This document shows positions 916 through 37,914 of a stretch of DNA of 64,000 nucleotides, one piece after another. The position numbers were made by a program, and so were the translations under genes. Below the pieces are notes generated by a model, which searched no databases, was not told the DNA's origin, and worked only from the letters and a program-made list of their open reading frames with translations. Location: positions 64,001 through 128,000 of IMG/VR virus record IMGVR_UViG_3300025133_000027; one strand, written 5' to 3'. Numbering within the stretch: position 1 is the first letter of the stretch; the number at the start of each line of letters is the position of its first letter. This stretch comes from a virus.

Positions 916-941
916 AGCTCATAACCACGAGGTGAGCTTTG
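916..941 (+). promoter_or_regulatory. Putative hairpin occluding the Shine-Dalgarno (GAGGTG) of the TTG-initiated glycosyltransferase gene
   Basis: agctca-ta-acc (916-926) pairs with ggtgagct (931-938); TTG start follows at 939. Confidence 0.35.
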
Positions 942-7427: not shown

Positions 7428-7438
7428 AAGGAGAATAA

Positions 7439-9751: not shown

Positions 9752-9767
9752 ACAATAAGGACAAAAA

Positions 9768-18980: not shown

Positions 18981-20773
18981 TGCCAAAACAAAAACCACCA
19001 GTATCATATACGAACAGAGACTTCTCTTCAATTAAGAAGGATTTGATTAACTATGCCAAAGTATATTATCCAGAGACATACAAAGACTTTAACGACGCCT
19101 CTTTCGGCTCGTTGTTGTTTGATTTAGTGTCTTATGTTGGCGACTCAATGTCGTTTTATATCGATTATCAAATGAACGAATCGATGATGGATACTGTGTT
19201 AGACCCAGACACGGCCATTAAGGTCGCTAAAAGAAGAGGTTATAAATTAAGTGGCTCTCCATCCTCAACCGGAACTGCTGCTTTTTATGTAACCGTGCCC
19301 GCGACTTCCGATGGAACCCAGCCAGAAACTGACCTTATCCCAATTCTAAAGAAAGGCTCGACACTTTCCTCAACCTCTGGAGCGAGCTTCATATTAAGTG
19401 AGGATGTAGATTTTTCAAAAGCATCAACTTTAATCACAGTTGCAGAGGTAGCTAACGACGGGTCGGTATCATCTTATGCTATGAAGGCTTACGGAGAAAT
19501 CCTATCAGGTGAGTTAAAGAGTGAATTCTTTACGGTTGGTTCTTATGAAAAATTTAGGAAACTTACTCTTGATGATGATAATGTTACTGAGATTTTACTA
19601 GTGACTGATTCTGAAGGTAGGCAATATTACGAAGTTGATTACTTGGCGCAAGATACGGTAATGAAGCCAATAAGAAATCTTGGAACTGATTTTGAACAAG
19701 CACCTTTCATAATTAAAGAGATGCAGGTGCCAAGAAGGTTTACTGTTGATTATGATTTAGAAGGTGTGGCAACAATCCAGTTTGGACATGGTTCTGAACA
19801 AGAACTGATTGATAAAACATTTCCAGACCCAAGAGATGCAGTCCTTCAATTACACGGCAGGGATTATATATCAGATACTTCTTTTGACCCAAACCTAGTT
19901 AGCAAAACTGAAAAGTTTGGAATATCTCCAACAGATACTACTCTCTTGGTTGAGTATCGTAAGAACACCGAAGCTGTTTTAAATATAGCTGTTGGGGGTA
20001 TCGACTTAGTATCTAATGCTATTATTGAATTCCGACAAAGTAATACTTACTCGAAACAACAAGCACTTTCGTTAATATCAGAATTTGAGGTTGAGAATGA
20101 AGAAAGAATTGTTGGTCAAGTATCTTTATTGAATGTTGATGAAATAAGAGAACTAGCTCTTGCAGCAAACGCAGCGCAAAATAGAGCTGTGACAAAGAAT
20201 GACTATGTTTCTGTTATCTATAGAATGCCTGCTAAGTATGGCAATTTAAAAAGAGCCAATGTTTTACAAGATAAAGACTCTTTCAAGCGTAACTTAAATA
20301 TATATGTGTTGGCAGAAGATGAAAATGGAAAGTTAGTAAAAGCGAGCACGACCCTTAAAAGAAATCTTAAGGCTTGGATCTCAAACTACAAGATGATGAA
20401 TGATACAATTGATATCTTGGATGGAAATATTGTTAATATTGGACTTGAGTTTGAAGTAATTTCTAGTATCGGGGAGAACAAGACTAGGGTCTTAAATGAT
20501 TGCCTACGTGCTCTTAAGGAAAATTTAGGTAGTAAACTAAATATGGGAGAGCCTCTCATCCTTGGTAGGTTATATAAAATCCTAAATGATGTTGATGGGG
20601 TAGAAGATACCAAGTCTGTTAATATAGTAAAGAAGACAGGTTCTTCTTATAGCAACGTAGTTTATGAGGTTAAAGAGAGACTTAAGTCTTCTGGAAGAAT
20701 TTTAACAGTTGCAGAGAATGCTGTTCTAGAAATAAAATATTTCGACACAGATGTAACCGGGGTGGTAATGTAA
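18980..20773 (+). CDS. gp6: Baseplate wedge subunit, gp6-like
   Basis: YTNRDFSSIKKDL, DFN.AS.G, QNRAVTKNDY. Confidence 0.9.
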   Translation: MPKQKPPVSYTNRDFSSIKKDLINYAKVYYPETYKDFNDASFGSLLFDLVSYVGDSMSFYIDYQMNESMMDTVLDPDTAIKVAKRRGYKLSGSPSSTGTAAFYVTVPATSDGTQPETDLIPILKKGSTLSSTSGASFILSEDVDFSKASTLITVAEVANDGSVSSYAMKAYGEILSGELKSEFFTVGSYEKFRKLTLDDDNVTEILLVTDSEGRQYYEVDYLAQDTVMKPIRNLGTDFEQAPFIIKEMQVPRRFTVDYDLEGVATIQFGHGSEQELIDKTFPDPRDAVLQLHGRDYISDTSFDPNLVSKTEKFGISPTDTTLLVEYRKNTEAVLNIAVGGIDLVSNAIIEFRQSNTYSKQQALSLISEFEVENEERIVGQVSLLNVDEIRELALAANAAQNRAVTKNDYVSVIYRMPAKYGNLKRANVLQDKDSFKRNLNIYVLAEDENGKLVKASTTLKRNLKAWISNYKMMNDTIDILDGNIVNIGLEFEVISSIGENKTRVLNDCLRALKENLGSKLNMGEPLILGRLYKILNDVDGVEDTKSVNIVKKTGSSYSNVVYEVKERLKSSGRILTVAENAVLEIKYFDTDVTGVVM

Positions 20774-22215
20774 TGGGCGTAAAGAGATTTTATTCTACAA
20801 AAGATAATACAATTACAAATGCTTTTAAGGCAGGCTTGACTATACGAGGAACTGGCTCTAATATGGGCGAATCAGATATTCTTGAGGTATACTCAATCTA
20901 TGGACAAGCATCTTCGGCTTCCTCTGAGAAGTCAAGAATTTTAATTGATTTTCCTATTTTAACAACTATCGCTCAAAGTAGGGATTCTGGAGAACTACCT
21001 ACTAGTGGAACTGATAATCTATCTTTCTACTTGAGGCTCTATAATGCAGAACACTCTCAAACACTCCCAAAACAATTTACACTTGTGGTTGCGCAAGCAT
21101 CAAGTTCCTGGAATGAGGGAACTGGTCTTGATATGGATGAGTTTTCTGACAGTGGCTACTCCAACTGGATATACCGCAGTAGCTCGGCACCATGGGTTGA
21201 CGAAGGTGGTGATATATTATCGGGTTCGGCAGACACCACAGGTTCACAGCTCTTTGAACTAGGAACCGAAGACTTGCTTATCAATGTAACACCTATTGTT
21301 GAAGACTGGCTAAGTGGTGATAGTTCTTCAAATGGATTTGCTGTTTTCTTGACATCCTCGCAGGAAACTGCTACCGAGTCTTATTATACAAAGAAATTTT
21401 TTGCTAGGAATAGTGAATTTCATATGAAAAGACCTTGTCTAGAAGCAAGGTGGAATTCTTCAAGGGGAGATGATTCCGAGACTTTTTATAAGAGTAGCTC
21501 GTTAGCACCGGCAGCAGATAATCTAAACACTTTATATCTTTACAACAAGATTAGAGGACAATTAGTTGATATTCCATCTGTTGCTCAGGGTGAGATCCTT
21601 GTGTCAGTTCACGAAACTGTTGGGACCCCTGCTCTGCCCTTGCCTGTTGGTGGGGGTGTGGTAGCTGGTGCTGACACTAATGTGACCGGCTCATGGGCTT
21701 CTACGGGCATTTATGAGGCTACTTTTGCGATGAGCCACTCAATCTCTAGCTTCGTGCCTGTATGGAAAACTAATACGGAAGAGTTTCACACCGGCTCAAG
21801 TATAACTGTAAACTCATTTGATTCACAAGACTACTACCCTGATAGAGAATATATATTTAAAATTAAGAATCTTAAAAAATCTTACAGTGAAGACGAAAAG
21901 ATGAGATTAAGACTCTTTGTAAGACATAAAAATTGGTGCCCTACTAATTATACAGTATCTAACACAACAGCTTCTAATGAAATACTTGAAGATGTATTTT
22001 GGAAAGTTGAACGTGTTGTTGATAAGTTTGATATCATTGACTATGGAACTGGTAGTACTCAACACACTCTACTTTCATATGATAGTGAAGGGAACTACTT
22101 TGATTTTGACACAAGCATTCTTGAAAAAGGTTATCAATATGCATTTAAATTTATATATAACATTGCAGGTGAGTATCATGAAGCAAAGAATGAGTTTAGA
22201 TTTAGGGTTGAGTGA
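20773..22215 (+). CDS. Putative baseplate/tail structural protein (DNRLRE-like beta domain)
   Basis: KDNTI...SRILIDF...W.EG.G...W...GGD...NVT.IV.DW...NGF...RP.LE pattern; lies between gp6 and the gp7-like gene. Confidence 0.6.
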   Translation: MGVKRFYSTKDNTITNAFKAGLTIRGTGSNMGESDILEVYSIYGQASSASSEKSRILIDFPILTTIAQSRDSGELPTSGTDNLSFYLRLYNAEHSQTLPKQFTLVVAQASSSWNEGTGLDMDEFSDSGYSNWIYRSSSAPWVDEGGDILSGSADTTGSQLFELGTEDLLINVTPIVEDWLSGDSSSNGFAVFLTSSQETATESYYTKKFFARNSEFHMKRPCLEARWNSSRGDDSETFYKSSSLAPAADNLNTLYLYNKIRGQLVDIPSVAQGEILVSVHETVGTPALPLPVGGGVVAGADTNVTGSWASTGIYEATFAMSHSISSFVPVWKTNTEEFHTGSSITVNSFDSQDYYPDREYIFKIKNLKKSYSEDEKMRLRLFVRHKNWCPTNYTVSNTTASNEILEDVFWKVERVVDKFDIIDYGTGSTQHTLLSYDSEGNYFDFDTSILEKGYQYAFKFIYNIAGEYHEAKNEFRFRVE

Positions 22216-22217
22216 TA

Positions 22218-25200
22218 ATGAGCATTAAAAATCTGTTTAAAAAACAAAATGAAAATAGTAGTCTAAAAAGTCTTCTAAAGAAGAACATCGATGGCTTTTC
22301 AGATGATGTTGAATCTCAAGCACTTATTGAGGAAACAGCAATTGCTTCAAAAATTTATATTCCAGATGTTGACTATTCTACTGCCTCAAATTTTTCAAAA
22401 TTCGGCTCTTCTGAGCTTTATTATGATGCTGCAATCAAAAGAATTTACACACAATATCCTTATGATGGGTCGGCTGCTGAGAAGAAGGCTTATGATAATA
22501 GCTTAACTCCACTTGAAAAACACATTGTAGATAATGAATACCCAAGATATCTAGGACATGCAGTGTTTGGAGAGACTTGGGGAGAAACCGCAGTTAGTGA
22601 TGTGGGTTTTTATTCTTCATCTAATCCTGAATATATTTCATGTTTCAGCCACGCAAGGACACAGACTCTTGATACCTCTTCAAACCAAGCTGGAAGCTTC
22701 CAGCTTGATTGGGACGTAGGCGCAACTATTGAGTTCTGGATGAAAAAGAATAGTTTCGAAGGAGTCTATAATTCAGCAGAAACAATTTTTGATATTAGAA
22801 ATACTTTAGGCACCGCAAAATTTATGATGTGGGCTAGTGTAGCTACGGATCCTGTTATTTATTTAGATTATAAACTTAGTACAGATTCATTTGCATCAAT
22901 TGCTACTTCTGAATTCCAAATGCCTTTTAACACTGGGCTTACTACTATTGCAGATGGTGAGTGGCATCATTATGCTTTTGTCCTAAATAAAAACTCAGGT
23001 GATTATCAGGTTGAGCTCTATGTGGATGGAGTCTACAATAGTACACAAACACAAACACCGACTACAACCACAATAAATTTAACAGGTTCTGCTATTGCAA
23101 CCATTGGTTCCCTAGGAGGTGCCTATGCGACAGGGGTTGTTTCTGCTGGTTATGGAAAACTATCAGGTTCCTTAGACGAATTTAGATTTTGGCAAACAGA
23201 TAGAACTGCAAAAGATATCTCTAAAAATTACTTTACGAAAGTTCATGGTGGCGGAAATACTGATTCTTCAAAAATAAACTCTAATAGGCCACTAGCCCTT
23301 ACCGCTTACTTTAGATTTAATGAACCAAGCATAGGTATTACCGCAGTTGACGATATTGTACTAGATTACTCTGGTCGCCTTGTGAATGGTACGTGGCACG
23401 GACATAATACAAGTTCCCGAGCCACAGGCTCTGCTATTTCTGATACTGGTGATTTAATCATTTACAGTGGTAGTAGCGATGTCCAGACATATATTGAAAA
23501 CAAGAGAGCTTCTGGGCGGTTCTATGATGCTTCAAACAACGCATCTTTAGCAAACTCTATTCCTGCTTGGATTCTAGATGAAGATAGAGAAAATGGAAAT
23601 GAACTAAGTAATTTATTGCAGATTATTGGTTCATATCTTGATACTGTATATTTGCAAATTGAAAATATCAATAAGACTAAGGACTTAGAATATAAGTCTT
23701 CTACGGTTAAGAGCTTTCCTCACAATAATAAGATACTAAACTCTTTAGGGTTTGAGACGCCAGAATTGTTTGTAGACAATAGTGTTCTTGAAGTGATTGC
23801 AGCTCAAGATAATAAAAGATTATTTGAAAATAGATTGGAAGAAGTTAAAGGGTTGATCTATAAAAATATCCATAACAATCTAAATTATATCTACAAATCA
23901 AAAGGAACTGAGAAAGCTTTTAGGAACCTTGTTAGGTGCTATGGTGTTGACGACTCCCTATTCAATATTGCGATCCATGCTAATAACCACGAGCAAGAAG
24001 TTGTTAGTGCATACGAGTATATCCATAATAAATTTTCAACAATAGACTTCACTAATTTTTCAAGTGGTGATAATAAAAGTGCAGTTATCTATTCATACGG
24101 GTCAGCAAGCAGTGATGTTTCTGGTTATATCTCTGGTAGTGCCTTCGAGTACATGGGGAATACTCTCGAAGTATCTGCTTTGTTTCCAAAATACCCAAAG
24201 TCTTCTGAAGAGTCGTTATATCCACCAACTTCTTTTATGTCTCAGTCACTATTTGGAATAGTTGAGGCGGCAGCAGACTCTACAGATTTAACTTATCAAA
24301 CTACCGATAACGCAAATATAAGCGTATTTGCTGTTAATCGAGACAATATAACCAAATTTGTATTAACTTCTTCACTTGGATTTTATTTAGAATCTGATCC
24401 TATTAGCAATGTTTACGAAGATACTACCTGGAATATCTCATATCGAATTAATGCTGAACAAGATGAGTTTGCAGATAATGCAACAGCATCAGCAAACTCA
24501 ACAATTAGTTTTAATGGATACAACTATAACGCTGGTATTTTACAAGATTCTTTTGAGATTACTGGCTCTACAACCAGAGCAATCCATACAGCATTCAATG
24601 CTGCACCTAAACGTATCTGGGCTGGTGCGAAGCGCACCAACGTAACTGGGGCTATCGCCAATAATTCAAACTATAGGTTGATAAATCTTAATTATTGGTC
24701 AGATGGAATTGATAATGATGAGCTGAAAGCACACGCTTTAGATCTTGAAAATATGGGTAGAAGAAGTCCGGGCGAGAATACATTCTCATTCCAAACCGGA
24801 CTATCAGCTAGTTATATTCCTAAAATTGATACTTTAAGTTTAAGTTGGAACTTTGACAGTGTGACAGGTTCTGATTCGTCAGGTGAATTTGTCCTACAAG
24901 ACGTATCTTCGGGCTCTCTTGCAAGAAATACTGCGTATGAGACTGCGTATGGTAAACTTGCCAAAACAAAACACACGGGTTACGGATATGGATTCGAAGT
25001 AAGCTCTGAAATAAAAAAGGTTGAGTTCTTAGAGACCTCAAGAAGGAACACTCCTGAAGAAATTAGTTCTGAGGAGTTGATCTCTATCTTGGAAACAGAC
25101 GATGACGTTCTTGAGAAGTCAACTAGGCCAACTAGTTTTTACTTTTCGTTTGAAGCTAATATGTTTAGGATCATCTCTAAGCGCATGCTTCAATATTTTG

Positions 25201-28200
25201 CTAGCATTGAAGATTTTAATAATCTTATTGGTGAACCAACAAATAGGTATGCAATAAGATACAAAAAACTTGAGAAATTAAAAGAAATTTTCTATGAAAG
25301 AGTTGAGAATACTCCTGATATTGAGAAGTTTGTTTCACTTTATAAATGGTTGGACTCTTCACTCGACGCGATTGTTAAAAACCTCATCCCGGCATCTGCC
25401 GATACTAACGATGAAGTAGCTACAATCATCGAGAGTCACGTATTAGAGAGGAGTTCTCATGAGGGAAGCCTTGGATTAAAAGGAGTTTATAATTACAAGA
25501 AGAAAGAAATAAATGATAATATGAACGCAGGAGCTTTTGTTGATAGCAAGATCAAAAAACAAGCTGGTAAATATCCTATCTCGACAGACTATTCTAATAC
25601 TGAAGCTTATACACCGCCTGTCTATGGGAAAGGGGATGAGGAACTCGGTGGAACGAAATTCTCTGACACACTACACCCAGAAACAAGAGCAGAAAAAGTT
25701 ACCACAATTGCTGGTGGTATTCAGAGAGTTCCTGCTCATCTAAAGAAGCGATTTAATATCCCAAGAAAAGATCAAGCATTATTGGACTCTACTCTCAACT
25801 CATATAGTGAAAATCGTTATGATTCTTCAAATTCTAATAACGTCTGGAGTAATCTTAGAGAAGAAAAAGATCCTTCGGTAAATACCAGAGTCCAGATTCA
25901 CGATGCAATAAACCGCTCTTATGCACTCCAGGCTAGAAGCGCTAACAACTTTGAAATGGAAGATCCTGAATTTGTTTCTGGAATTAATAGAAATAAAAAT
26001 ATTTTCAAAGGGTATTTTAGACCATTTATCAAAAGAACTAGTACAGCAGAGATTGCCGATAATTACTTTAGTTTAGGGTTTGACGATATTCAGAGTTACT
26101 TATCGTCATCAACATTGACATTTAAGAATATTGAAAAACTTGATATCTTTTTCAACATAAATGGTGTTCTAGATGCAACAGATGTTGAATCATACGCTGT
26201 CTTACCATTCACTGCATATAGTAGTTCTGTTGAAAAAGGCTACCAGAAAGATCTAACCGAATTATCGCACCCAATTACTATTATCGGGCACCACGATGAT
26301 ACAGAGTATTTAAACGGCTCTCCTGGGTTGCAATCTCCTTTTAACAAGGCTCATGTTGGTGGGTTTAACCATCGAAGCCAGCCTGTTAACCGAGGGAGTG
26401 ACGACGCTAGCTCTAGAGCAGAACAGTTTAAGATTCTTAGCAATGCTACTGGTTTTGGCCTATACCCACCGTGGCAGGCAGCAGAACTAGCTTTCGCTCG
26501 GCCAATATTTAATCTGAATTTTCCTACAGCTATTTTTTCGAAAGAAGAATATGTTCGAAGGGTTGTCAATACAAGAAATATTAGCTATAACTCAAGTTCT
26601 CTTATTCTTGGAAACTACAGAAAGAATTATGAGGTAGTGTCTGCTGGTTCCAGGGCAACTCACAACCTTGCCTTTATAGACCAAAATGGCTTTACACAAA
26701 CAACCAGCAGTTCTCCTGTAATCTCTGGTGATATTGAATATGCGAATCCTACAAGGACTGTGGAAAATGGTACTTCAACAAAGTCATTTTTCGTAACAAA
26801 GTTTAGTTCACCGGGTGGAGCAGAGACTGAAGGTGCATTCTTAGATATTCATTCAGGACAGTATAGTGTTTATAACAATCTTAACTATAGAAATCTTGGA
26901 GTAAGAAAGTCATTAAACAATATATTCTTAGCTAGCCCTTCTGCTTTAGGAGGACTAGTCGAGGGCTCAACAACAACAGGTTCATACCACAAGGTTAATC
27001 GTAATAACGCTACTAGGGTAAAAGAAGTAACGAGAGCAACACCTGTCTATTCGCCAACTTATGATGAATCAGATAAAATAAGTAACAATTTTCATGTTCA
27101 AAGTTCAATCCCTAGAACTGATTATGGTTACAAGTGGATTCACGACAGTCTAAATACAGCTTCCTCGACGCAAGCCTACCTAGGCCACGTCAAACCATCT
27201 GGTATTTCAGGTGGCGTGACCCTGACTAACTTTCATACAGGAAGTTCTTACTTTACAAATAATGCTATCTTAACTCGTTCTTTTGGCTACCCTTCTTGGA
27301 AACAAGTAAGAGTTGGTCAGACAAATTCTGCTAGCCTGCAAAGAAGAGCAAATATCTATGAAAACAGAGTAGTCAGTAAAGTCTTTAGGGAGAGGGATGA
27401 ATATACGATCAAAACAGTTACACATCCTCCGGTAACAAGTAAGTTTAAACCTATTTATCATAAAGCTGTTATGGACGGTGAAGAAGTAGAATTTGAATAT
27501 GCATACGCAAGTTCTTATAACTTCTTTGGTGATAATTATGACGAGTCCACTGGCAAGAATGTTAACTTTCTTGGTAAGAATAATGCAATAAACTTAAAAA
27601 AGAATACCCTTTTAGAAAAGATTGCACAGAATGAGTCTATTAGGACAAAAGCTATAACCTATAAAGAGGTCGTCTGGCCTAAAGAATCAAGAACTTATCT
27701 CAAAACGTCAAGAGAAAGGGCAGATTATCTTCATCCATGGAGAGACGACGAAACCGACAGGATTACTCAGTCTGAAACTGTTTTTGGCCTAAATGTTTAT
27801 AATCCAGACTTGTTTTCAACTTGGCCGCTAGACACGACTGCAACTGGTTTTAATGGAGAATTAATGCAGGGCGATAGTGATGATTATTATTTGTCTGCCA
27901 GTATTACTAGCATGCCTGTTGGTGGGTTAACATATTTTGTTATTGGTGCTCGCTATACTAGGCTTCAAGGAATCACCACTCCTAAATGTACAGTACATGG
28001 TTCTGGAAGTCCTTTCTATGACTCTTATGAAGATTTTAATGAGGATATAAGAAGGATTGGTAAAGATTACTCTATTATTCCTGAATATAATTTTACAAAT
28101 AAAGCTTCAGAGTATTTTGAAAGTGGCGGCTCTGATATACTTGAAGAAACAAACCAATTATTCCTATCCGGCACGCTAGGCGAAACAAGCTCACTGTTTA

Positions 28201-30116
28201 TAGAAAACTTTGTAAACAGCGATCAGCTTAGTTCACACGTAGACATTGAAAGACTAATTGGAAAGCCAACAAGGTTTAAGCTTAGTTTTAGTGGAATCAA
28301 AAAAGTTCTTCCGTATAAAGGGTTCTATCCCCAAGAAAGAACCTTACAATTAGCAAGAATTTTTGAAACGTCCCACAAAATCCTGAATGTATTTCAACCT
28401 AGCGCAACCGGAACGGAAGCTACGTTCAGAACTGCACTTGCTCCTTTTTACTCACCAGGAATTTGTTATAACTCAATTAAAGCCGGGATTGCTGTAGATT
28501 ATCCGATTTTGAACCCTGATAGCCTCACTGCCTTTAGCAGATTAACAGATCTGACAAACTCTCCATTCCGAACAGCTCAAAAAGCTCTTCCCTTTGAAGC
28601 GATCTTAGATCCTATTAAGGGCTTGCTTTCATCTACCTCTTCGTTACTCGTCAGTGACGCTGACAGTGATATACAAGTTGATTCAACAGCTTCCTTTTCG
28701 TCAGGCTCCGATGCTCTTTATAAGAAGGCAGCAAACAATTGGTATGGTTCAGTACCTGACTTGTTCTTAAGAGGTGGAGGCTTAACATCACTTGAATCTG
28801 CAAAGGAAGAAGATTGGGTTTTTGATAATGTATCAAGTTCTTCTGGAATAACCAAATATGTTGGTTATATTAAACTTAATAAAACAACAGGCTTCGCTAA
28901 CTATCGGGGAGGAAACGCATTCGGGCCATCGGCATCTACCGGCGTTAATCTTCACCATGTGCCCCCTTATTGGAGAGGTGATGAGGAGTTCGACAATACC
29001 AGTGCTAGTATTGGTTATGCAAGAATTGAGTTCGATCCTGCCCCAATTGAAATAAACGATCCTGATAGATTTTACAATGGAAAGTTCACTCTTGATGATA
29101 TTATAAAATACTCTACAATTACTTACGGAAATAAATCCCAAGACGATATTCCTGCTGACAACTATATGACACTTTCTGCGAGTGTTAACATGTTTAACAA
29201 GCAAGATTCGAGATGGAAGATTCAGACAAAGTGGGAGTGCCCAAACCTTAACTTTGCAGAAGCGACTGGATACACAACAGGGTCAGTTACCTCTGATGAG
29301 GTTATGATTGGTATGTGGCATCAGTATGGTACGATCCCAGAAGATAGAGAAGGCCTGCTTCTTGAAGCGGCTCCTTCCGAGGCTACCGATAGTTCTTACC
29401 AGATTGCTGCTGGAACCTCTTCCTTAATGGAAGCCTGTGGTTTTAAAAATGTTTCAAAGAGAATTGGAGAAATTGCGGATAGAAAAGATCTATCAGAATA
29501 CATTGCTGTGATTCCTTATTATACTAATGAGAGAGGCAAGGATGTATTCTTAACACTCGACCTAAGAGAATTTGAGGCTTCTTACACTAACTTAAAAGCT
29601 GGAACAAACAATTCTAGCCTTGACGACATGTTGTTCAAGATGAGTGATGTAATGTTGCCACCAAGATTTAATTTCTTAAAGAAGAGAAAGGAAAAAAGAG
29701 GTCCCCTTTCTAAAGAGGAGTATAACCCAATATTGGCACCATTCGCTCTTTACTTATTCGAGTTTACTCACAGTTATAGTCAACTTGACTTATCACATTG
29801 GTGGCAAGGGATCCTGCCAGAGTCTGGCAAGATTGCAACGAAGGAAGATATTTCAATCGATCATGATATAAAAGCTGGCGAAATATTAAGCCCACGCACA
29901 CTAGCCGCTAATGGACTAACTAGCCTTCCTGAGAACTTGAGGTTTAAGATAATAAAGCTTAAAAAGAAAGCAGTCTCAGATTTCAATTATTTGAAAACAG
30001 GCAAAGATAGTGAGGAATATTCCTATAACTGGCCTTATGATTTCTTCTCACTAGTGGAAATGGGTAAACTAAGCATAGAACTTGAATACGGAGACGATGA
30101 TGACGTTTCAGAATAA
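22218..30116 (+). CDS. Giant baseplate wedge protein (gp7/tail protein I-like) with LamG/concanavalin A domain
   Basis: TIEFWMK...DGEWHHYAFV...LYVDG...GSLDEFRFW (LamG); IYKSKGTEKAFRNL.RCYG (gp7/gpI KGT motif); 2.6k aa. Confidence 0.75.
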   Translation: MSIKNLFKKQNENSSLKSLLKKNIDGFSDDVESQALIEETAIASKIYIPDVDYSTASNFSKFGSSELYYDAAIKRIYTQYPYDGSAAEKKAYDNSLTPLEKHIVDNEYPRYLGHAVFGETWGETAVSDVGFYSSSNPEYISCFSHARTQTLDTSSNQAGSFQLDWDVGATIEFWMKKNSFEGVYNSAETIFDIRNTLGTAKFMMWASVATDPVIYLDYKLSTDSFASIATSEFQMPFNTGLTTIADGEWHHYAFVLNKNSGDYQVELYVDGVYNSTQTQTPTTTTINLTGSAIATIGSLGGAYATGVVSAGYGKLSGSLDEFRFWQTDRTAKDISKNYFTKVHGGGNTDSSKINSNRPLALTAYFRFNEPSIGITAVDDIVLDYSGRLVNGTWHGHNTSSRATGSAISDTGDLIIYSGSSDVQTYIENKRASGRFYDASNNASLANSIPAWILDEDRENGNELSNLLQIIGSYLDTVYLQIENINKTKDLEYKSSTVKSFPHNNKILNSLGFETPELFVDNSVLEVIAAQDNKRLFENRLEEVKGLIYKNIHNNLNYIYKSKGTEKAFRNLVRCYGVDDSLFNIAIHANNHEQEVVSAYEYIHNKFSTIDFTNFSSGDNKSAVIYSYGSASSDVSGYISGSAFEYMGNTLEVSALFPKYPKSSEESLYPPTSFMSQSLFGIVEAAADSTDLTYQTTDNANISVFAVNRDNITKFVLTSSLGFYLESDPISNVYEDTTWNISYRINAEQDEFADNATASANSTISFNGYNYNAGILQDSFEITGSTTRAIHTAFNAAPKRIWAGAKRTNVTGAIANNSNYRLINLNYWSDGIDNDELKAHALDLENMGRRSPGENTFSFQTGLSASYIPKIDTLSLSWNFDSVTGSDSSGEFVLQDVSSGSLARNTAYETAYGKLAKTKHTGYGYGFEVSSEIKKVEFLETSRRNTPEEISSEELISILETDDDVLEKSTRPTSFYFSFEANMFRIISKRMLQYFASIEDFNNLIGEPTNRYAIRYKKLEKLKEIFYERVENTPDIEKFVSLYKWLDSSLDAIVKNLIPASADTNDEVATIIESHVLERSSHEGSLGLKGVYNYKKKEINDNMNAGAFVDSKIKKQAGKYPISTDYSNTEAYTPPVYGKGDEELGGTKFSDTLHPETRAEKVTTIAGGIQRVPAHLKKRFNIPRKDQALLDSTLNSYSENRYDSSNSNNVWSNLREEKDPSVNTRVQIHDAINRSYALQARSANNFEMEDPEFVSGINRNKNIFKGYFRPFIKRTSTAEIADNYFSLGFDDIQSYLSSSTLTFKNIEKLDIFFNINGVLDATDVESYAVLPFTAYSSSVEKGYQKDLTELSHPITIIGHHDDTEYLNGSPGLQSPFNKAHVGGFNHRSQPVNRGSDDASSRAEQFKILSNATGFGLYPPWQAAELAFARPIFNLNFPTAIFSKEEYVRRVVNTRNISYNSSSLILGNYRKNYEVVSAGSRATHNLAFIDQNGFTQTTSSSPVISGDIEYANPTRTVENGTSTKSFFVTKFSSPGGAETEGAFLDIHSGQYSVYNNLNYRNLGVRKSLNNIFLASPSALGGLVEGSTTTGSYHKVNRNNATRVKEVTRATPVYSPTYDESDKISNNFHVQSSIPRTDYGYKWIHDSLNTASSTQAYLGHVKPSGISGGVTLTNFHTGSSYFTNNAILTRSFGYPSWKQVRVGQTNSASLQRRANIYENRVVSKVFRERDEYTIKTVTHPPVTSKFKPIYHKAVMDGEEVEFEYAYASSYNFFGDNYDESTGKNVNFLGKNNAINLKKNTLLEKIAQNESIRTKAITYKEVVWPKESRTYLKTSRERADYLHPWRDDETDRITQSETVFGLNVYNPDLFSTWPLDTTATGFNGELMQGDSDDYYLSASITSMPVGGLTYFVIGARYTRLQGITTPKCTVHGSGSPFYDSYEDFNEDIRRIGKDYSIIPEYNFTNKASEYFESGGSDILEETNQLFLSGTLGETSSLFIENFVNSDQLSSHVDIERLIGKPTRFKLSFSGIKKVLPYKGFYPQERTLQLARIFETSHKILNVFQPSATGTEATFRTALAPFYSPGICYNSIKAGIAVDYPILNPDSLTAFSRLTDLTNSPFRTAQKALPFEAILDPIKGLLSSTSSLLVSDADSDIQVDSTASFSSGSDALYKKAANNWYGSVPDLFLRGGGLTSLESAKEEDWVFDNVSSSSGITKYVGYIKLNKTTGFANYRGGNAFGPSASTGVNLHHVPPYWRGDEEFDNTSASIGYARIEFDPAPIEINDPDRFYNGKFTLDDIIKYSTITYGNKSQDDIPADNYMTLSASVNMFNKQDSRWKIQTKWECPNLNFAEATGYTTGSVTSDEVMIGMWHQYGTIPEDREGLLLEAAPSEATDSSYQIAAGTSSLMEACGFKNVSKRIGEIADRKDLSEYIAVIPYYTNERGKDVFLTLDLREFEASYTNLKAGTNNSSLDDMLFKMSDVMLPPRFNFLKKRKEKRGPLSKEEYNPILAPFALYLFEFTHSYSQLDLSHWWQGILPESGKIATKEDISIDHDIKAGEILSPRTLAANGLTSLPENLRFKIIKLKKKAVSDFNYLKTGKDSEEYSYNWPYDFFSLVEMGKLSIELEYGDDDDVSE

Positions 30117-30900: not shown

Positions 30901-30902
30901 TA

Positions 30903-32228
30903 ATGACTATAGAAATTAGCGCAAAATCAGGAAGAGTAGGGGACTTATTCGTATTAGAGCAGGAATACTTTACAGAACTATATACTTCGATCACCCCGGC
31001 AAGAGAGTTAAATATTATATGTGGTTTCAATCTTGCAGTTTTTGCTAAGGACAAGTCTTTGTACCCAGAGGTTGTTGAGATTGACAGTTTTTGGGAAGAG
31101 AACAAAGGCTCATATATCAAGGACTTCTATGTTGAATTATACAATAAAAGAGGGTCTATAATAGCAAACATGTCACCACTGTATGAGAAAGATGGGCATG
31201 TTTTCTATTCTAGTCAAATAAGGCTTACAGATATTAAACTAAAAAAAGATATAACTTGCAAAGCTAAGATTACTTTTATAGATCCTACTGTAAATTATGT
31301 AAAGAGTCTATTGACAGCAAACCCGAGCCGACAAGAGATCGAACTTTATAGAAACTTACATAATAAACAGAAGATCTTGAATTTAAATTCCAAGTTCAGA
31401 CTTTCAGAGGTTGAACATACTTATCAAGCAATAAAGTCGATTACTCACAAAGAAGTTTTACACTCAGTTATTGGAGAGACAATTGAGATTAGTAATACAT
31501 CGATGCTAGAACGTATTAGTTATGAAGAAGAGAAGTTTGGGGATTCAATGGAGTCTGTAATCTTATCCCCAAAAGCTTTTTTATTCGGAAATCGAAGAGT
31601 TGATAACCTTTTAGACAATCATAATTTACAGAAAGAAGTGATCATCAGAGAGTTTCTTAATAGCGAAGTAATTCAATATAGCCTTGGGACCTATTCAACT
31701 GATGTTTCTGGTTTAACTCTAGGTAAAACGAAAGAGATTGTTGAGGATGGCAACTCTGGCAGATCGTCAATAACCCGCTCCGCTTTACCCTCAGCTATGA
31801 ATAGCGGTGCTCAAAGAGAGTTTGGTTCATCGGTCAAGACTACTAGCTTACCAATGCATAATATTCAGCTCTACGATGCTGTTACAAAATCTGTTACGAG
31901 TATTGAAGAATCTGTCTTGAATATGAGTAAAGAAGATACTGCCCCCATCCAGGTAAAGTTTTATAAAGAAACAGATTCTTTGCTTTCTGATATGAATACG
32001 TTTTCAACGATATGGAATAATTCTAAGGAACTATATATTATATATTACATTACAGAAGTCAAGTCTTCTGGGGAAATTGTCTGGGAGATTTTGACAAAGG
32101 AAGATTTGTTAGGCTCTAATGAACCTTTTCTATGCAAGATATTAAAATATAATAGTCAAAAGTATGGAGTGCTTCCACTAAAAGGTTTAAATTATACAAC
32201 AACAAATGAGTTTTTTATTATAAGATGA
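30903..32228 (+). CDS. Hypothetical protein (tail region)
   Basis: 441-aa ORF with GAGG RBS. Confidence 0.65.
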   Translation: MTIEISAKSGRVGDLFVLEQEYFTELYTSITPARELNIICGFNLAVFAKDKSLYPEVVEIDSFWEENKGSYIKDFYVELYNKRGSIIANMSPLYEKDGHVFYSSQIRLTDIKLKKDITCKAKITFIDPTVNYVKSLLTANPSRQEIELYRNLHNKQKILNLNSKFRLSEVEHTYQAIKSITHKEVLHSVIGETIEISNTSMLERISYEEEKFGDSMESVILSPKAFLFGNRRVDNLLDNHNLQKEVIIREFLNSEVIQYSLGTYSTDVSGLTLGKTKEIVEDGNSGRSSITRSALPSAMNSGAQREFGSSVKTTSLPMHNIQLYDAVTKSVTSIEESVLNMSKEDTAPIQVKFYKETDSLLSDMNTFSTIWNNSKELYIIYYITEVKSSGEIVWEILTKEDLLGSNEPFLCKILKYNSQKYGVLPLKGLNYTTTNEFFIIR

Positions 32229-33946: not shown

Positions 33947-33963
33947 ATTAATGGAGAAATATA

Positions 33964-34899
33964 ATGGCATTTTTAGGTAACGATGGAGACATAATTTTAG
34001 ACGCAGTTTTAACTGACGCTGGACGAAAACGATTGGCGGCTGGTGATGGAACTTTCCGAATTTCAAAGTTTGCGCTAGGTGATGATGAGATTAATTATGC
34101 TCTGTATGATTCAACAAATGCAAATGGCAGTGCTTATTATGATCTTGATCTGCTTAAAACCCCAGTTTTTGAGGCGATAACTCACTCTGGAGCTGGTTTA
34201 TCAAGCAAGCTATTGACGATTCCAAACTCTGAGCTATTGTTCTTACCATTATTAAAACTAAATGTGAAAAGAGCTCCTTTGTCATCACTTAATAACTACA
34301 TCCTTGTTGTAAATGATACTTTGGCAGAGGCTCTTACTGGTGGAGCTACTTTACCAAACTATAGAACAATCTTTAGTGGACAAACAGGCTATATTGATGG
34401 CAGAAGCTCTGCAAAGGCTGCGGAAACTTTAACGGCACGAGTTGACCAGGGGCTTGACAACCAAGAAGCTGGTGGTGCCGGAACCGCAATGCTTGAATCT
34501 CTTGAAGAGTCAAGATACTTAGTGTCTATGGACAACAGGTTTTGTGAGCTAACATCAGTCGGTGAAAACCCAGAAGCCGCAGAAATAGTATATGTCTCAG
34601 CAGATAAAACAAGCACATACTACATCTCAAGTGCGGCAAACCCTGAGTATTTTGCTCCTGCTCCAAGCAAGGAAAATACAAACATTGCAGGACCAGTTGG
34701 AAGACAGTTCCAATTCAGTATCAAGGGTTCTCCATCAATCCTGAACAATACAGAATATCTTTTTAATACATACGGAAGAAGTGTTGTGGATTATAATGGA
34801 ACAGGAGAGACTGTTAACGTTATCGATACAAATATCAAGATTCAAGGCGGAACACAGGGATCTACAATCAATATCCCAGTCCAACTCGTATCACAATAA
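33964..34899 (+). CDS. Baseplate/tail-collar-like structural protein
   Basis: ILDAVLTDAGRKRLA...ISKFALGDDEINY resembles the N-terminal half of tail-collar (DUF3751-like) domains. Confidence 0.6.
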   Translation: MAFLGNDGDIILDAVLTDAGRKRLAAGDGTFRISKFALGDDEINYALYDSTNANGSAYYDLDLLKTPVFEAITHSGAGLSSKLLTIPNSELLFLPLLKLNVKRAPLSSLNNYILVVNDTLAEALTGGATLPNYRTIFSGQTGYIDGRSSAKAAETLTARVDQGLDNQEAGGAGTAMLESLEESRYLVSMDNRFCELTSVGENPEAAEIVYVSADKTSTYYISSAANPEYFAPAPSKENTNIAGPVGRQFQFSIKGSPSILNNTEYLFNTYGRSVVDYNGTGETVNVIDTNIKIQGGTQGSTINIPVQLVSQ

Positions 34900-34908
34900 G
34901 GAATAAAA

Positions 34909-35979
34909 ATGGCAGCAAGTATTTATAAAACAATCAAACCAGCAGATAAAACAAGTCAGAAAACTGTATTGCACGAATCAATCCCTATTACTGGATCGTT
35001 AGTATCTGGCACATATGGAACATGGCCAGACGATACAAACGTCAAATTTTATAGTCATGGATATTTCCAATCAGTTTATGATTATCCATATCTTAGTTCT
35101 TCAGCAAACCACATGTTTGATCTTAGTTTTGGTCTTGCACCCACGTATGCAACACAACCATCGGCAAGTGGTGAAGAAGGCACAATAAAAAATGCAATCT
35201 GGAATCAAATGTCCCAGGTTACATATGGCTATGACCCAACAGGTTCTATCATTCCTATCAATCGCTCTGGCTCACTAACTCCCTCTGGTGTCGGTCTTGC
35301 AGGACCTATCATGGAAGATATTGTTGTTATCAATTTTAGTAGGCTTCTTGCTAAAGATGAAATTAAGAAAGAATCGTTTAGCATGGTTCTTGGGACTGGG
35401 AATTATGCAACACCGTTTGACGCAGAAGGAGTAACTCTTTCAGACCTAGGAGCTTCAACTGCTTACAAAAACAACTCTCCACTTGGAGAATATTCGATTC
35501 TATACTCAGGTTCCACTGCTACTAGTATGGGAGCACAAGGGCTTTTATTTTACCAAGCAGGATTTGCTGTAGTTGCGGGTGCAGCAGTATTTTCGAATGC
35601 CGACGCTTTTGCTTCTTCAAGCATTCTAGGCACTCAAACATATGAAAACTCTATTGTTTCTCAAAGTTGCGATGATCTTAGTTCTGGGCTAAGGCGAAGA
35701 ATCCAAAATATCTCGTTTAACAATACGACAGAACTGAACTCATCTATTTATTTCTGCAAAGTAGACCATGGTGATTTCAACTATTCATCTAATCCTACTT
35801 ATGTTTCTGGTTCGAAGATTCGGGTCAAAGAAACAATTGGTGACTCTCCGATGACTTATATTACGACAGTTGGATTGTATTCAGAAGATAATGAACTACT
35901 TGCAGTTGCAAAGCTTTCGGAACCAATCAAAAATTCAGCGACAGATGCTTCAACTTTCAGAGTAAGACTTGACTACTAA
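34909..35979 (+). CDS. Baseplate/tail-collar-like structural protein
   Basis: FNYSSNPT...YITTVGLYSEDNELLAVAKLSEPIK...RLDY C-terminus. Confidence 0.65.
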   Translation: MAASIYKTIKPADKTSQKTVLHESIPITGSLVSGTYGTWPDDTNVKFYSHGYFQSVYDYPYLSSSANHMFDLSFGLAPTYATQPSASGEEGTIKNAIWNQMSQVTYGYDPTGSIIPINRSGSLTPSGVGLAGPIMEDIVVINFSRLLAKDEIKKESFSMVLGTGNYATPFDAEGVTLSDLGASTAYKNNSPLGEYSILYSGSTATSMGAQGLLFYQAGFAVVAGAAVFSNADAFASSSILGTQTYENSIVSQSCDDLSSGLRRRIQNISFNNTTELNSSIYFCKVDHGDFNYSSNPTYVSGSKIRVKETIGDSPMTYITTVGLYSEDNELLAVAKLSEPIKNSATDASTFRVRLDY

Positions 35980-35991
35980 GGTTCTAAACCT

Positions 35992-37914
35992 ATGTTTAAA
36001 ATAAAACAAAATGAGGTATTTAACAACATCTTGAAAACATACCCAAAATATGTTTTCAAGATGTTCAATAACAAATGTGTTTTAAATGATTCGAATGATG
36101 AGGGAATTCATTCTAGCGACGAGGGCAAGCTTTATTTAAATGACTTGAACCTAAAAGCTCCAGTAAGTAATAATTCTCTTTATTACGATAAGACAGGATC
36201 GTGTATTGTTTCAGGAGGTATTCCTGATTTACTTTCATCAGATGGAACCTCTATAAACGATGGCAATTTGGCAATCTCAATGTGGGTCTATGTAGAGACT
36301 GGCTCAATTCCTGGAAACCCAACCTTAGTACAAATAGGAACTCAGTCACTTTCTGTTGAAGATGGTCGTGATGTTCTATACTTCAACGGAACAAGTTCGA
36401 TAAATCCATTCTCTTTGGTTTATAGCATTGGAACACCCTCAGGAGAGAAAAGATACCGAACAGAGAAGAATATACTTCCTCTTGAAGAATGGACCCATGT
36501 TGCTGTAACCAAAGTTCAGTTTGATAAGGCGTATTTTTATGTAAATGGTGAAAGACTCACTACTATCAAAGAAGTTGACACAGCAACAGCCGGTGGGGTG
36601 TTTACAAAGTTAACTGCCTCTATAGGTAATAATGCAAATGACGGAAGTGTATTTCCTGGCTATATAGATGAAGTGAGTTTATTTTCAAAGAAGCTAAGAT
36701 CATCAGACGCCTCTTATCTCTATAACGAAGGCCAACCAAGAGACTATCTAAATCTTAATAGCACCCTATCCCCAAAGATAGTTTCTCACTGGACCATGGG
36801 GGACGGGGACACCGCTCCTACCGTTTCTGATAAAATATCCACAAACGATCTTATAATGTCAGGGTTTTCTACAAACTATGGAATCTCAAACAAGGTTCCT
36901 TTAGGCTCACAAGTCTCTATCAGCGATGGGAATCTAAAACAAAATAAAAAGAATCCAGATGGATTTACGTTTAGACGAGAGTATATTCATAAAACAGATA
37001 GTGCTGGGTATAATTCATACGATGAGACATACACTTCAACAAAAACGATGTTTAAGATGTTAACTCTTAAAAACGCAATGGACCGCTATCTTGTTATGTC
37101 TGATGCTTTTAAGTTTGAGAACTTTCTTTTAAGCGGTGGATTACCAACGAATACAAATACAGACACTAGCACTGGCTTAGTGACTAGAATGATCCATCCA
37201 TCTGGTAGTATTAACATTCTTAGCATTCCAAAGATGTTTTATGAAAACAGAATTAAGCCCGGAAGTGTGAGTCTTAATTTTTATACATCAGGAAGTCTTA
37301 TTGCGACTGCGCAGGACTTATATAAGAACGGAGCAATGGTCAGCACCCTGGGCATGGACTCAGGTTCGGTCGTCGGAACCGTCCTTTACAGCGAGGGATA
37401 TATCCTTTTGACGGGCTCCACAGTCCTAGACGCCTCTCACTCCGAGCCATATATGAAGCCTCTTAGAACGGAAGACAGCGCTGGATATGATAATCCGAAA
37501 TGGATCCACTTTGGCTCTTACGAGTCCGCAACAGGAAGCAACCTACCTTCGTCTTCATATAAGATGGAATTCAAAGGTGAGAACTCTATAAATACATTGA
37601 TGTTCTTTGCTCATGCAAGAAAGAATGAATTAAATTATAGTAACAACCCCTCATACCTAGAAGCTGGCAATGGTGGTAAATGGATAATAAGTACTGGTTC
37701 TAAGTTGTATCTAGAAAACGAAAGTCTACCAATTAAGAATACAATTTCCAGTTCAGTCTCACATCATTCAGAGTCTTTTCAACAGCAAGTTTTTATTGAT
37801 AGAATTGGAGTTTATGATAAAGATGGTGATATGATTATGGTCGCTTCCCTTGCCAACCCACTTAAAAAAAGGACAGATTTAAGCTATACTTTTAAACTCA
37901 AAATGGATATGTAA
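35992..37914 (+). CDS. Tail structural protein with inserted LamG domain
   Basis: ISMWVY...WTHVAVT...YVNG...GYIDEV (LamG); C-terminus LNYSNNPS...IGVYDKDG..IMVASLANPLKK paralogous to 34909. Confidence 0.7.
   Translation: MFKIKQNEVFNNILKTYPKYVFKMFNNKCVLNDSNDEGIHSSDEGKLYLNDLNLKAPVSNNSLYYDKTGSCIVSGGIPDLLSSDGTSINDGNLAISMWVYVETGSIPGNPTLVQIGTQSLSVEDGRDVLYFNGTSSINPFSLVYSIGTPSGEKRYRTEKNILPLEEWTHVAVTKVQFDKAYFYVNGERLTTIKEVDTATAGGVFTKLTASIGNNANDGSVFPGYIDEVSLFSKKLRSSDASYLYNEGQPRDYLNLNSTLSPKIVSHWTMGDGDTAPTVSDKISTNDLIMSGFSTNYGISNKVPLGSQVSISDGNLKQNKKNPDGFTFRREYIHKTDSAGYNSYDETYTSTKTMFKMLTLKNAMDRYLVMSDAFKFENFLLSGGLPTNTNTDTSTGLVTRMIHPSGSINILSIPKMFYENRIKPGSVSLNFYTSGSLIATAQDLYKNGAMVSTLGMDSGSVVGTVLYSEGYILLTGSTVLDASHSEPYMKPLRTEDSAGYDNPKWIHFGSYESATGSNLPSSSYKMEFKGENSINTLMFFAHARKNELNYSNNPSYLEAGNGGKWIISTGSKLYLENESLPIKNTISSSVSHHSESFQQQVFIDRIGVYDKDGDMIMVASLANPLKKRTDLSYTFKLKMDM

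What the first reader, a model, noticed from the sequence alone, without database searches (positions are those of the whole stretch)
20773..37914. Strong excess of the tripeptide [S/T]-G-S in exterior virion proteins: a putative sequon
Hand counts of [ST]GS: 6 in ORF 20773 (480 aa), 13 in 22218 (~2630 aa), 5 in 34909 (356 aa), 8 in 35992 (640 aa) and 7 in the sheath (~970 aa read), about 39 in ~5100 aa. The similar control [ST]GT occurs only about 5 times in the same proteins. Mre11-Rad50, terminase, portal, primase, the two GT4s, the scaffold and ORF 55903 together have about 3 in ~4600 aa. SAS, SSS and TAS also look frequent. The asymmetry and restriction to outward-facing proteins suggest selection for a short modification motif rather than general Ser/Gly richness (inference).
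Basis: partly seen in the sequence, partly recalled or inferred. Interest (0 to 1): 0.8.

Follow-up and report, generated by a model that had tools for sequence, protein, structure and literature searches.

The report
Ser/Thr-Gly-Ser tag on phage tail
Five tail, baseplate and sheath proteins of this uncultured marine T4-like phage carry the tripeptide Ser/Thr-Gly-Ser five times more often than chance, as do thousands of relatives that share a phage-specific pair of sugar-transferase genes. It is probably an attachment site for a phage-made sugar coat, but no chemistry shows this yet.

Summary
The counts are exact: 39 [ST]GS in five proteins (5,082 aa) against 8.0±2.7 in shuffles. TGS alone is 25 vs 3.2 (p 1e-14), the top of all 8,000 tripeptides. 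[ST]GT (5 vs 5.5) and the reversed SGT (4) are not enriched. Codons vary, so this is not a DNA motif. These five ORFs are the top five of 177 in the genome; the major capsid protein is not enriched.

The excess recurs in 80 IMG/VR relatives, in Microcystis phage Mel-JY01 and in Flavobacterium phage immuto. It is absent from T4 and cyanophage Syn33, and weak in RM378 and a 484-kb phage. In two protein families, TGS and SGS are the two most enriched tripeptides in non-conserved columns, and sites come and go across the tree. Modelled sites lie at hairpin tips, strand ends and loops with hydrophobic flanks.

Strongly positive phages share a GT4 pair (ORFs 939 and 2758) leading a sugar-synthesis block. 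An O-glycosylation sequon is the best reading (about 0.5). No chemistry exists, and the "outward-facing" claim is supported (by inference) only for the sheath.

This scan has noted the same motif at least eight times on other Far-T4 genomes. I found no published report.

The parts
20773..22215 (+). 480-aa baseplate-region protein just after the gp6-like wedge gene. It has 6 [ST]GS sites (residues 27, 150, 156, 305, 340, 426).
   Evidence: 6 vs 0.88 expected; p 3e-4. No Pfam, PHROG or PDB match.
22212..30116 (+). 2,634-aa giant tail/baseplate protein with 13 [ST]GS sites.
   Evidence: 13 vs 3.44. Orthologue fragments in 80 relatives: 101 vs 26.6.
34909..35979 (+). 356-aa tail/baseplate protein from a large uncharacterised family (2,198 representatives at E<=1e-3). 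It has 5 sites (residues 28, 111, 120, 200, 300).
   Evidence: AF2 model has pLDDT 88, with sites at strand ends and loops. 79 orthologues: 278 vs 50.1.
35992..37914 (+). 640-aa paralogue of ORF 34909 with an inserted Laminin_G_3 (ConA-like) domain. It has 8 sites (residues 68, 103, 404, 433, 457, 474, 514, 568).
   Evidence: hhalign A1 vs A2 gives 99.5% probability. Sites 433, 457 and 474 lie at hairpin tips or strand ends in the region with pLDDT >90. 77 orthologues: 405 vs 54.7.
61084..64000 (+). Tail sheath (989 aa in the whole genome; it runs off the window). It has 7 sites, all in residues 165-509.
   Evidence: PHROG_23 at 6.5e-58 and Pfam sheath domains at residues 699-972. Residues 151-520: 7 vs 0.92. 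Elsewhere: 0 vs 0.63.
939..2213 (+). GT4 glycosyltransferase, first of the conserved pair (candidate modifying enzyme; inferred).
   Evidence: Pfam Glycos_transf_1 at 1.5e-11. E-x7-E motif is visible. Homologues occur in immuto, Mel-JY01, RM378 and LR756508.1.
2758..4008 (+). GT4 glycosyltransferase, second of the pair. Its presence tracks the motif best (inferred link).
   Evidence: Pfam at 1.6e-7. Among 50,697 phage records it is found only in immuto and Mel-JY01. It is present in 9 of 9 long IMG/VR relatives. More than 5,400 metagenomic clusters match.
4008..9369 (+). Rest of the sugar block: a Glyco_trans_1_2 GT (4841-5761), an FkbM methyltransferase (5761-6405), an NDP-sugar 4,6-dehydratase (7439-8392), a DegT/LegC/PseC-type aminotransferase (8380-9369) and two unassigned ORFs.

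Best explanation
The motif, with hydrophobic residues on both sides of [Ser/Thr]-Gly-Ser, is a selected and positionally fluid tag. It sits on loops, hairpin tips and strand ends of tail, baseplate and outer-sheath proteins of Far-T4 phages.

Most likely it is the acceptor site (sequon) for O-glycosylation. The modification would be made in the infected cell's cytoplasm, on folded or folding tail proteins, by soluble phage-encoded GT4 enzymes (ORFs 939 and 2758). Further transferases and a methyltransferase would extend it, using an amino-deoxy sugar made by the adjacent dehydratase and aminotransferase. The result would be a glycan coat on the tail.

Shown: the enrichment, its specificity, its turnover, its clade distribution and its loop location in models. 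Inferred: that it is modified, by which enzyme, with which sugar, and what the coat does.
For: 1. Specificity. TGS is 25 vs 3.2 and is the only outlier of 8,000 tripeptides. Other turn-formers on the same scaffold are at expectation: [ST]GT 5/5.5, [ST]GN 2/4.6, [ST]GD 6/4.2, [ST]GA 4/4.7, and [ANDG]GS. Reversed SGT is 4.
2. Same folds, different clade. T4 virion proteins (26 proteins): 8 vs 13.0. Syn33: 29 vs 20.9.
3. Replication. Mel-JY01 tail module, e.g. 9 vs 0.6 and 11 vs 1.4. Immuto tail spikes, 26 vs 5.9 and 12 vs 1.3. 80 IMG/VR relatives, 3.8-7.4x in four orthogroups and 2.4x in a fifth (33964).
4. Fluid position. In non-conserved columns of two families, SGS and TGS rank first and second of all tripeptides (5.3x and 4.9x; 7.2x and 8.1x), while TGT is 1.0-1.7x by threshold. 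No column exceeds about 40% occupancy in the 34909 family. Site presence changes on the tree almost as often as it occurs, e.g. 26 carriers and 19 changes.
5. Location. In the 34909 family, 59% of sites are in coil and 5% in strand, against 41% and 36% of all residues. In 35992, sites sit at hairpin tips at 433 and 457 and a strand end at 474. A semi-conserved site lies in a low-pLDDT loop after the NYSSNPTY motif. Sheath sites lie only outside the core domain.
6. Enzymes. The GT4 pair and sugar block lie directly upstream of the baseplate genes. The block is syntenic after a PD-(D/E)XK nuclease gene in Mel-JY01 and immuto. The ORF2758-type GT occurs only in those phages among cultured records and in 9 of 9 long relatives. 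It was not found in bacterial genomes.
7. The genome has no thymidylate-synthase-family hydroxymethylase, so the classical route to glycosylated hydroxymethyl bases has no support.
8. Precedent. Phage-encoded GTs glycosylate mycobacteriophage capsid and tail-tube proteins (Freeman 2023, as described in PMC12619734). GT4 GtfA/GtfB glycosylate Ser-rich acceptors inside the cell (PMC5796085).
Against: - There is no chemical evidence of any modification in any of these phages.
- The GT link rests on few independent lineages and is confounded with phylogeny.
- RM378 has both GTs (the second only as a weak N-terminal homologue), but its excess is not significant.
- LR756508.1 has the first GT, but only its 34909 homologue is enriched (3 vs 0.34).
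- The major capsid proteins, the most exposed virion proteins, are not enriched.
- Some sites behave as structural positions. One column reads TGS 48, TGT 40, TGA 8.
- Many immuto and Mel-JY01 sites sit in fibre-type 'SGSFxGSFxGDGSxLTG' repeats.
- The virion position of four of the five proteins is unknown.
- The GT block could instead serve host-surface or DNA modification.
Confidence: 0.5

Rival explanations
1. Purely structural motif. Hydrophobic-[ST]-G-S-hydrophobic would be a preferred strand-cap or hairpin-tip in the beta-rich tail folds and fibre shafts of this clade. It would be inherited and re-invented because it folds well, with no modification.
For: - Sites sit at hairpin tips and strand ends with hydrophobic flanks.
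- One site is a conserved T-G-x position.
- Immuto and Mel-JY01 have periodic SGSF/TGSF runs in fibre-type N-terminal repeats.
- The capsid is not enriched.
- RM378 and LR756508.1 carry GT homologues but have a weak motif.
Against: - Homologous folds in T4 and Syn33 (sheath, gp6/gp25-type wedge, large S/G/T-rich fibres) show no excess.
- Classical turn residues at the third position (N, D, T) and at the first (D, N, G) are not enriched.
- Alternatives at hot columns often lack Gly altogether: VSA, GAA, SAS.
- Sites turn over rapidly while density is kept.
Confidence: 0.3
2. The tag serves another enzyme or partner. It could be a different modification (phosphorylation, acylation), or a docking site for an assembly chaperone or for a host-surface ligand. 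The GT block would serve something else, such as host envelope or DNA modification.
For: The motif's specificity and turnover indicate recognition by something. Nothing ties the GTs to proteins directly. Both GT4s most resemble generic GT4 enzymes and the chlorovirus GT B736L.
Against: The only motif-correlated genes I tested and found were the GT pair. The other unassigned cluster ORF I tested (6402) has no homologue in the cultured phages. I did not search for a kinase or acyltransferase. There is no hydroxymethylase for DNA glycosylation.
Confidence: 0.15
3. Artefact of composition, low-complexity patches, duplicated segments or a DNA-level word.
For: The five proteins are richer in Ser, Gly and Thr than the rest of the genome.
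Against: - Shuffles and a Markov expectation already account for composition.
- Same-composition permutations are not enriched.
- Contexts are unrelated apart from two short pairs.
- The 39 sites use 29 codon strings.
- The result is replicated in independent genomes.
Confidence: 0.02

Closest known systems
Virion glycosylation of mycobacteriophages by phage-encoded glycosyltransferases (Freeman et al. 2023, Cell Host Microbe; known here only through its description in PMC12619734 and PMC12801897)
   Same: The phage carries its own glycosyltransferases next to structural genes. Virion proteins are the proposed targets, and a glycan shield on the particle is the proposed role.
   Different: There, glycans are shown chemically and sit at the C-termini of capsid and tail-tube subunits. 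Here nothing is shown chemically and the capsid protein is not enriched. The candidate sites are dispersed tripeptides in loops of tail, baseplate and sheath proteins. The phages are myoviruses whose known hosts are Gram-negative bacteria or cyanobacteria; this phage's own host is unknown.
GtfA/GtfB O-GlcNAc priming of serine-rich-repeat adhesins and Lactobacillus glycoproteins (PMC5796085)
   Same: Two adjacent GT4-type (GT-B) proteins act inside the cell on Ser/Thr of a protein that later ends up outside. Acceptors are Ser-small-Ser contexts.
   Different: GtfA and GtfB share an N-terminal DUF1975, and GtfB is a non-catalytic chaperone. Here no DUF1975 was found, and both proteins keep the E-x7-E motif. 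SRRP acceptors are long disordered Ser-rich repeats, not isolated tripeptides in folded domains.
Bacterial autotransporter heptosyltransferases (Aah/AIDA-I, TibC/TibA), cited from my own knowledge and not read here
   Same: Cytoplasmic O-glycosylation of a beta-rich surface protein. The acceptor is defined structurally as a short loop between two short beta-strands, as at sites 433 and 457 here (474 sits at a strand end).
   Different: The enzyme family is unrelated and the sugar is heptose. The acceptor repeats are 19-residue units of one beta-helix. No BAHT homologue was looked for or seen here.
Chlorovirus capsid glycosylation machinery (GT B736L of chlorovirus NY-2A, PDB 3oy2)
   Same: It is the best solved-structure match of ORF 2758 and the third best of ORF 939. 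It is a virus-encoded soluble GT4 from a virus that glycosylates its own virion protein in the cytoplasm (my knowledge).
   Different: The matches are weak (E 1e-7 and 5e-4). Chlorovirus glycans are N-linked to the capsid protein at atypical sites. The role of B736L itself is not established.

Membership tests
Phage virion glycosylation of the mycobacteriophage type | Phage-encoded glycosyltransferases beside the structural genes | tested here: met
   Three Pfam-supported GTs plus sugar-synthesis genes lie at 939-9369, directly upstream of the baseplate genes.
Phage virion glycosylation of the mycobacteriophage type | Glycan chemically detected on virion proteins | not testable with these tools
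   Needs mass spectrometry or glycan staining of virions. Papers that mention immuto turned up in one search but I did not read them for such data. No paper on Mel-JY01 is held.
Phage virion glycosylation of the mycobacteriophage type | Targets are the C-termini of capsid and tail-tube subunits | tested here: not met
   The major capsid protein ORF 53969 has 1 site vs 0.89 expected. Candidate sites are internal loops of tail proteins.
GtfA/GtfB priming pair | GT4 (GT-B) fold with a catalytic E-x7-E motif | tested here: met
   Glycos_transf_1 matches in both ORFs. EGFGLATLE and EGFGLPLFE are visible.
GtfA/GtfB priming pair | N-terminal DUF1975 that mediates partner and acceptor binding | tested here: not met
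   No such Pfam match at E<=0.001 in ORFs 939 or 2758.
GtfA/GtfB priming pair | Acceptor is a long Ser-rich dipeptide repeat region | tested here: not met
   The 39 sites are isolated and have unrelated flanks.
Generic type II' / I' beta-hairpin turn (structural reading) | Gly in the turn, with interchangeable N, D, S or T beside it (established turn statistics, my knowledge) | tested here: not met
   [ST]GN 2/4.6, [ST]GD 6/4.2, [ST]GT 5/5.5, [DN]GS 3/5.2, against [ST]GS 39/8.0.
Bacteroidetes general O-glycosylation sequon D-(S/T)-(A/I/L/V/M/T) | Asp before the modified Ser/Thr, and a methyl-bearing residue after it (PMC5796085) | tested here: not met
   Position -1 is hydrophobic and polar residues are depleted there (0.27-0.57x). 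Position +1 is Gly.
Far-T4 phages (Roux et al. 2015, PMC4360716) | T4-type capsid, portal, terminase and sheath genes, with the nearest cultured relatives being RM378-group phages rather than Tevenvirinae or cyanophages | tested here: inconclusive
   Sheath, tail-protein and GT homologues are found only in Mel-JY01, immuto, RM378 and LR756508.1. No capsid-protein tree was built.

The most novel reading that the evidence does not exclude
The abundant aquatic Far-T4 phages coat their tails with a phage-made glycan. A phage-specific cytoplasmic GT4 pair would attach it at a defined three-residue sequon, [S/T]-G-S between hydrophobic residues at loop tips. This would be the first sequon described for virion glycosylation in phages. 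Sites would be gained and lost quickly while their density is kept, like glycan shields of animal viruses.
Probability: 0.45. Interest if true: 0.85.

Novelty: new variant of a known kind. Interest (0 to 1): 0.7.

Why it matters
If the tag is a glycosylation site, a large and globally abundant group of marine and freshwater phages would carry a self-made sugar coat on the tail. The group is large: over 2,000 representatives of the tail-protein family at 50% identity, and over 5,400 clusters of the transferase.

Such a coat would bear on host recognition, particle stability, stickiness to marine gels, grazing and antibody or lectin binding. It would also provide a short, portable acceptor motif with a soluble enzyme pair for glyco-engineering.

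The idea is directly testable, because two carriers are in culture: Flavobacterium phage immuto and Microcystis phage Mel-JY01. If it turns out to be purely structural, it is still an unusually sharp clade-specific sequence rule for beta-hairpin tips.

Tried and rejected
- DNA-level word: rejected, because the 39 sites use 29 codon strings.
- Composition or low-complexity artefact: rejected.
- Duplicated modules: contexts are unrelated, apart from 'FHTGSS' (20773 and 22212) and 'TGSNLPSS' (35992 and sheath).
- Close relatives of ORFs 35992 and 20773 in IMG/VR by single-sequence patterns: none found. Relatives were reached instead through protein searches.
- Sequence search of PDB with ORFs 34909, 35992 and 20773: nothing.
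- Foldseek and VIA-align on both models: best Z 4.3 and 5.1, to small beta domains of phage baseplate and tail proteins (phi812 9euf_b, Bxb1 tail tip, HFTV1 tail). This is too weak to place the proteins in the virion.
- hhalign of the two families against T4 gp48 and gp54, suggested by gene order, length and composition: no similarity.
- ESM Atlas: only unnamed viral clusters.
Secondary structure and pLDDT were used as proxies.
- Apparent depletion in replication enzymes of relatives (15 vs 37.4): not taken as sequon avoidance. This genome's non-virion ORFs sit at expectation (17 vs 16.7), as do T4 enzymes (3 vs 3.0).
- ORF 2758 homologues in bacterial genomes: none by single-sequence patterns.
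- ORF 4841-type GT: homologues only in Streptomyces phages, so it does not track the motif.
- ORF 6402: no phage homologue.
- The Freeman 2023 paper itself is not held.
Full report
**Observation**

I translated the 52 long plus-strand ORFs of the window and counted the motif. ORFs 20773, 22212, 34909, 35992 and 61084 (the sheath) hold 6, 13, 5, 8 and 7 [ST]GS, and 5 [ST]GT between them. The eight named control proteins hold 3.

- Composition-preserving shuffles of the five proteins give 8.0±2.7, and none of 1000 reaches 39.
- An unbiased scan of all tripeptides puts TGS (25 vs 3.2, p 1.4e-14) alone at the top. The runner-up has p about 2e-4, which is what 8,000 tests give by chance.
- SGS is 14 vs 4.7.
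- A first-order Markov expectation (7.5 for TGS) does not remove the excess.
- The third residue must be Ser and the first must be Ser or Thr. [ST]GT, [ST]GN, [ST]GD, [ST]GA and A/N/D/G-GS are all at expectation.
- The motif is directional: TGS 25 against its reversal SGT 4.
- The 39 sites use 29 different codon strings.
- In the whole 176-kb genome, the five ORFs are the top five of 177.
- The virion gene blocks hold 52 vs 15.7, and the rest of the genome 17 vs 16.7.

**What the proteins are**

- ORF 61084 is the tail sheath.
- ORF 18591 is gp25-like and ORF 18980 gp6-like. This places ORFs 20773 and 22212 in the baseplate module.
- ORFs 34909 and 35992 are paralogues (hhalign 99.5%) from a large uncharacterised family. 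ORF 35992 carries an inserted ConA-like domain.
- The major capsid protein (ORF 53969) is not enriched.
- The phage is an uncultured marine T4-like phage. Its tail-protein and GT homologues among cultured or deposited phages are found only in Microcystis phage Mel-JY01, Flavobacterium phage immuto, Rhodothermus phage RM378 and a 484-kb metagenomic phage; Mel-JY01 and the 484-kb phage also hold its closest sheaths. That is the 'Far-T4' neighbourhood of PMC4360716.

**Replication and controls**

| Phage or set | [ST]GS result |
|---|---|
| Two metagenomic relatives | Excess in orthologues of 34909 and 35992 |
| 80 IMG/VR relatives, 35992 orthologues | 405 vs 54.7 |
| 80 IMG/VR relatives, 34909 orthologues | 278 vs 50.1 |
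| 80 IMG/VR relatives, 30082 orthologues | 50 vs 9.1 |
| 80 IMG/VR relatives, 22212 orthologues | 101 vs 26.6 |
| Same 80 relatives, four enzyme groups | 15 vs 37.4 |
| Mel-JY01 tail module | e.g. 9 vs 0.6 and 11 vs 1.4; [ST]GT near zero |
| Immuto tail spikes | 26 vs 5.9 and 12 vs 1.3 |
| T4, 26 virion proteins | 8 vs 13.0 |
| Cyanophage Syn33, very S/G/T-rich virion proteins | 29 vs 20.9 |
| RM378 | No significant excess |
| 50 kb of LR756508.1 | Only the 34909 homologue (3 vs 0.34) |

The motif is therefore not a general property of T4-type tail folds or of Ser/Gly/Thr-rich fibres. It is a clade trait.

**Evolutionary behaviour**

- Among 150 representatives of the 34909 family, no column carries the motif in more than about 40% of sequences. 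440 sites are spread over 98 columns.
- At hot columns, TGS or SGS is the commonest tripeptide among very diverse alternatives, many of them without Gly.
- One column is a plain structural T-G-x position: TGS 48, TGT 40.
- I then restricted counting to columns where no residue reaches 50% (or 30%). SGS and TGS are the two most enriched of all tripeptides in both the 34909 family (5.3x, 4.9x) and the 35992 family (7.2x, 8.1x). TGT is 1.0-1.7x by threshold.
- On a quick maximum-likelihood tree, presence of a site changes nearly as often as it occurs, for example 26 carriers and 19 changes. The tree is only a quick one, so this count is an upper bound.

**Structural context**

- Flanks are hydrophobic and polar residues are depleted at position -1.
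- The AF2 model of ORF 34909 (pLDDT 88) puts its sites at a strand end or helix cap (28), in loops (111, 120), at a strand end (200) and in a low-confidence loop (300).
- Over the family, 59% of sites map to coil and 5% to strand, against 41% and 36% of all residues.
- In ORF 35992, the well-modelled stretch 410-490 is a beta-meander. Sites 433 and 457 sit in its 1-2 and 3-4 loops and 474 directly after strand 5, so by my reading of the topology they lie on the same edge. The alternate loops hold invariant residues.
- All seven sheath sites lie in residues 151-520 (7 vs 0.92), and none lies in the conserved C-terminal core. In T4 gp18 the equivalent insertions face outward. That is established knowledge about T4, but applying it here is inference.
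- Fold searches were too weak to place the other proteins in the virion.

**Candidate enzymes**

- Window 939-9369 encodes two GT4 enzymes, a Glyco_trans_1_2 GT, an FkbM methyltransferase, an NDP-sugar 4,6-dehydratase and a LegC/PseC-type aminotransferase.
- Both GT4s keep the E-x7-E motif. Among solved structures, the chlorovirus GT B736L is the best match of ORF 2758 and the third best of ORF 939.
- The block follows a PD-(D/E)XK nuclease gene here, in Mel-JY01 and in immuto.
- ORF 939 homologues occur in all four deposited relatives.
- ORF 2758 homologues occur only in immuto and Mel-JY01, the two with a strong motif. They also occur in 9 of 9 long IMG/VR relatives. RM378 p014 is a weak N-terminal homologue.
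- The ORF 2758 family has more than 5,400 metagenomic clusters, on contigs no longer than phage size among those listed. No bacterial match was found.
- The genome (97% complete) has no thymidylate-synthase-family gene, so the usual route to glycosylated DNA bases is unsupported.

**Reading**

The specificity, direction, turnover, loop location and clade restriction together argue that something recognises this tripeptide. The co-distributed, phage-specific GT pair makes O-glycosylation the best candidate, at about 0.5.

The main rival is a clade-specific structural preference, at about 0.3. It is supported by the conserved T-G-x site, by the periodic SGSF/TGSF runs inside fibre-type repeats of immuto and Mel-JY01, and by the weak motif in RM378 and LR756508.1 despite their GT homologues.

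No chemistry exists. I found no paper that mentions this motif or virion glycosylation in Far-T4 phages.

**Earlier notes of this scan**

At least eight earlier notes describe the same motif on other Far-T4 genomes and reach the same tentative reading. I treated them as leads. The tests that I ran in response to them here were the GT-pair association and the hairpin-tip location. Both hold in part, with the exceptions named above.

Noticed in passing
window 35992-37914 (residues 84-238): ORF 35992 carries a Laminin_G_3 / ConA-like lectin insertion. 74 of 77 orthologues are under 480 aa and so appear to lack it; most are 380-440 aa. Only P0002 and one IMG/VR relative (L089) match its length. 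It looks like a recently acquired carbohydrate-binding module on a baseplate protein.
   Followed up: partly
window 34909-37914; Mel-JY01 172-180 kb: ORFs 34909 and 35992 are paralogues that share a C-terminal domain ending in '...NYSSNPTY...VAKLSEP...RVRLDY' (hhalign 99.5%). Mel-JY01 has at least four copies in a row. The family has no Pfam, PHROG or PDB assignment despite more than 2,000 representatives.
   Followed up: partly
window 2758-4008 and relatives P0194, P0204, P0208 etc.: In many relatives the ORF 2758-type GT4 is fused to a GT2 domain (PF00535), giving proteins of 640-700 aa. This suggests the two act on the same substrate in succession.
   Followed up: no
window 939-4008: Among solved structures, the chlorovirus NY-2A glycosyltransferase B736L (3oy2) is the best match of ORF 2758 and the third best of ORF 939. 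It is a virus-encoded GT4.
   Followed up: no
window 4841-5761: The Glyco_trans_1_2 protein has homologues, among cultured phages, only in Streptomyces siphophages. There it sits at about 25 kb of roughly 69-kb genomes.
   Followed up: no
window 39945-43046: A single 1,033-aa ORF joins Mre11-type (Metallophos) and Rad50-type (SMC_N) parts. The orthologue in L001 shows both Pfam families.
   Followed up: no
whole genome G000: No thymidylate-synthase / hydroxymethylase family gene is present in a genome estimated 97% complete.
   Followed up: partly
Mel-JY01 (L005) 635-3052 and 9152-9986, plus strand: Plus-strand open frames show extreme [ST]GT counts (75 vs 12.6). At 635-3052 and 9444-9986 they overlap annotated minus-strand genes and are probably shadow frames; 9152-9658 only partly does. 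They are unrelated to the finding.
   Followed up: no
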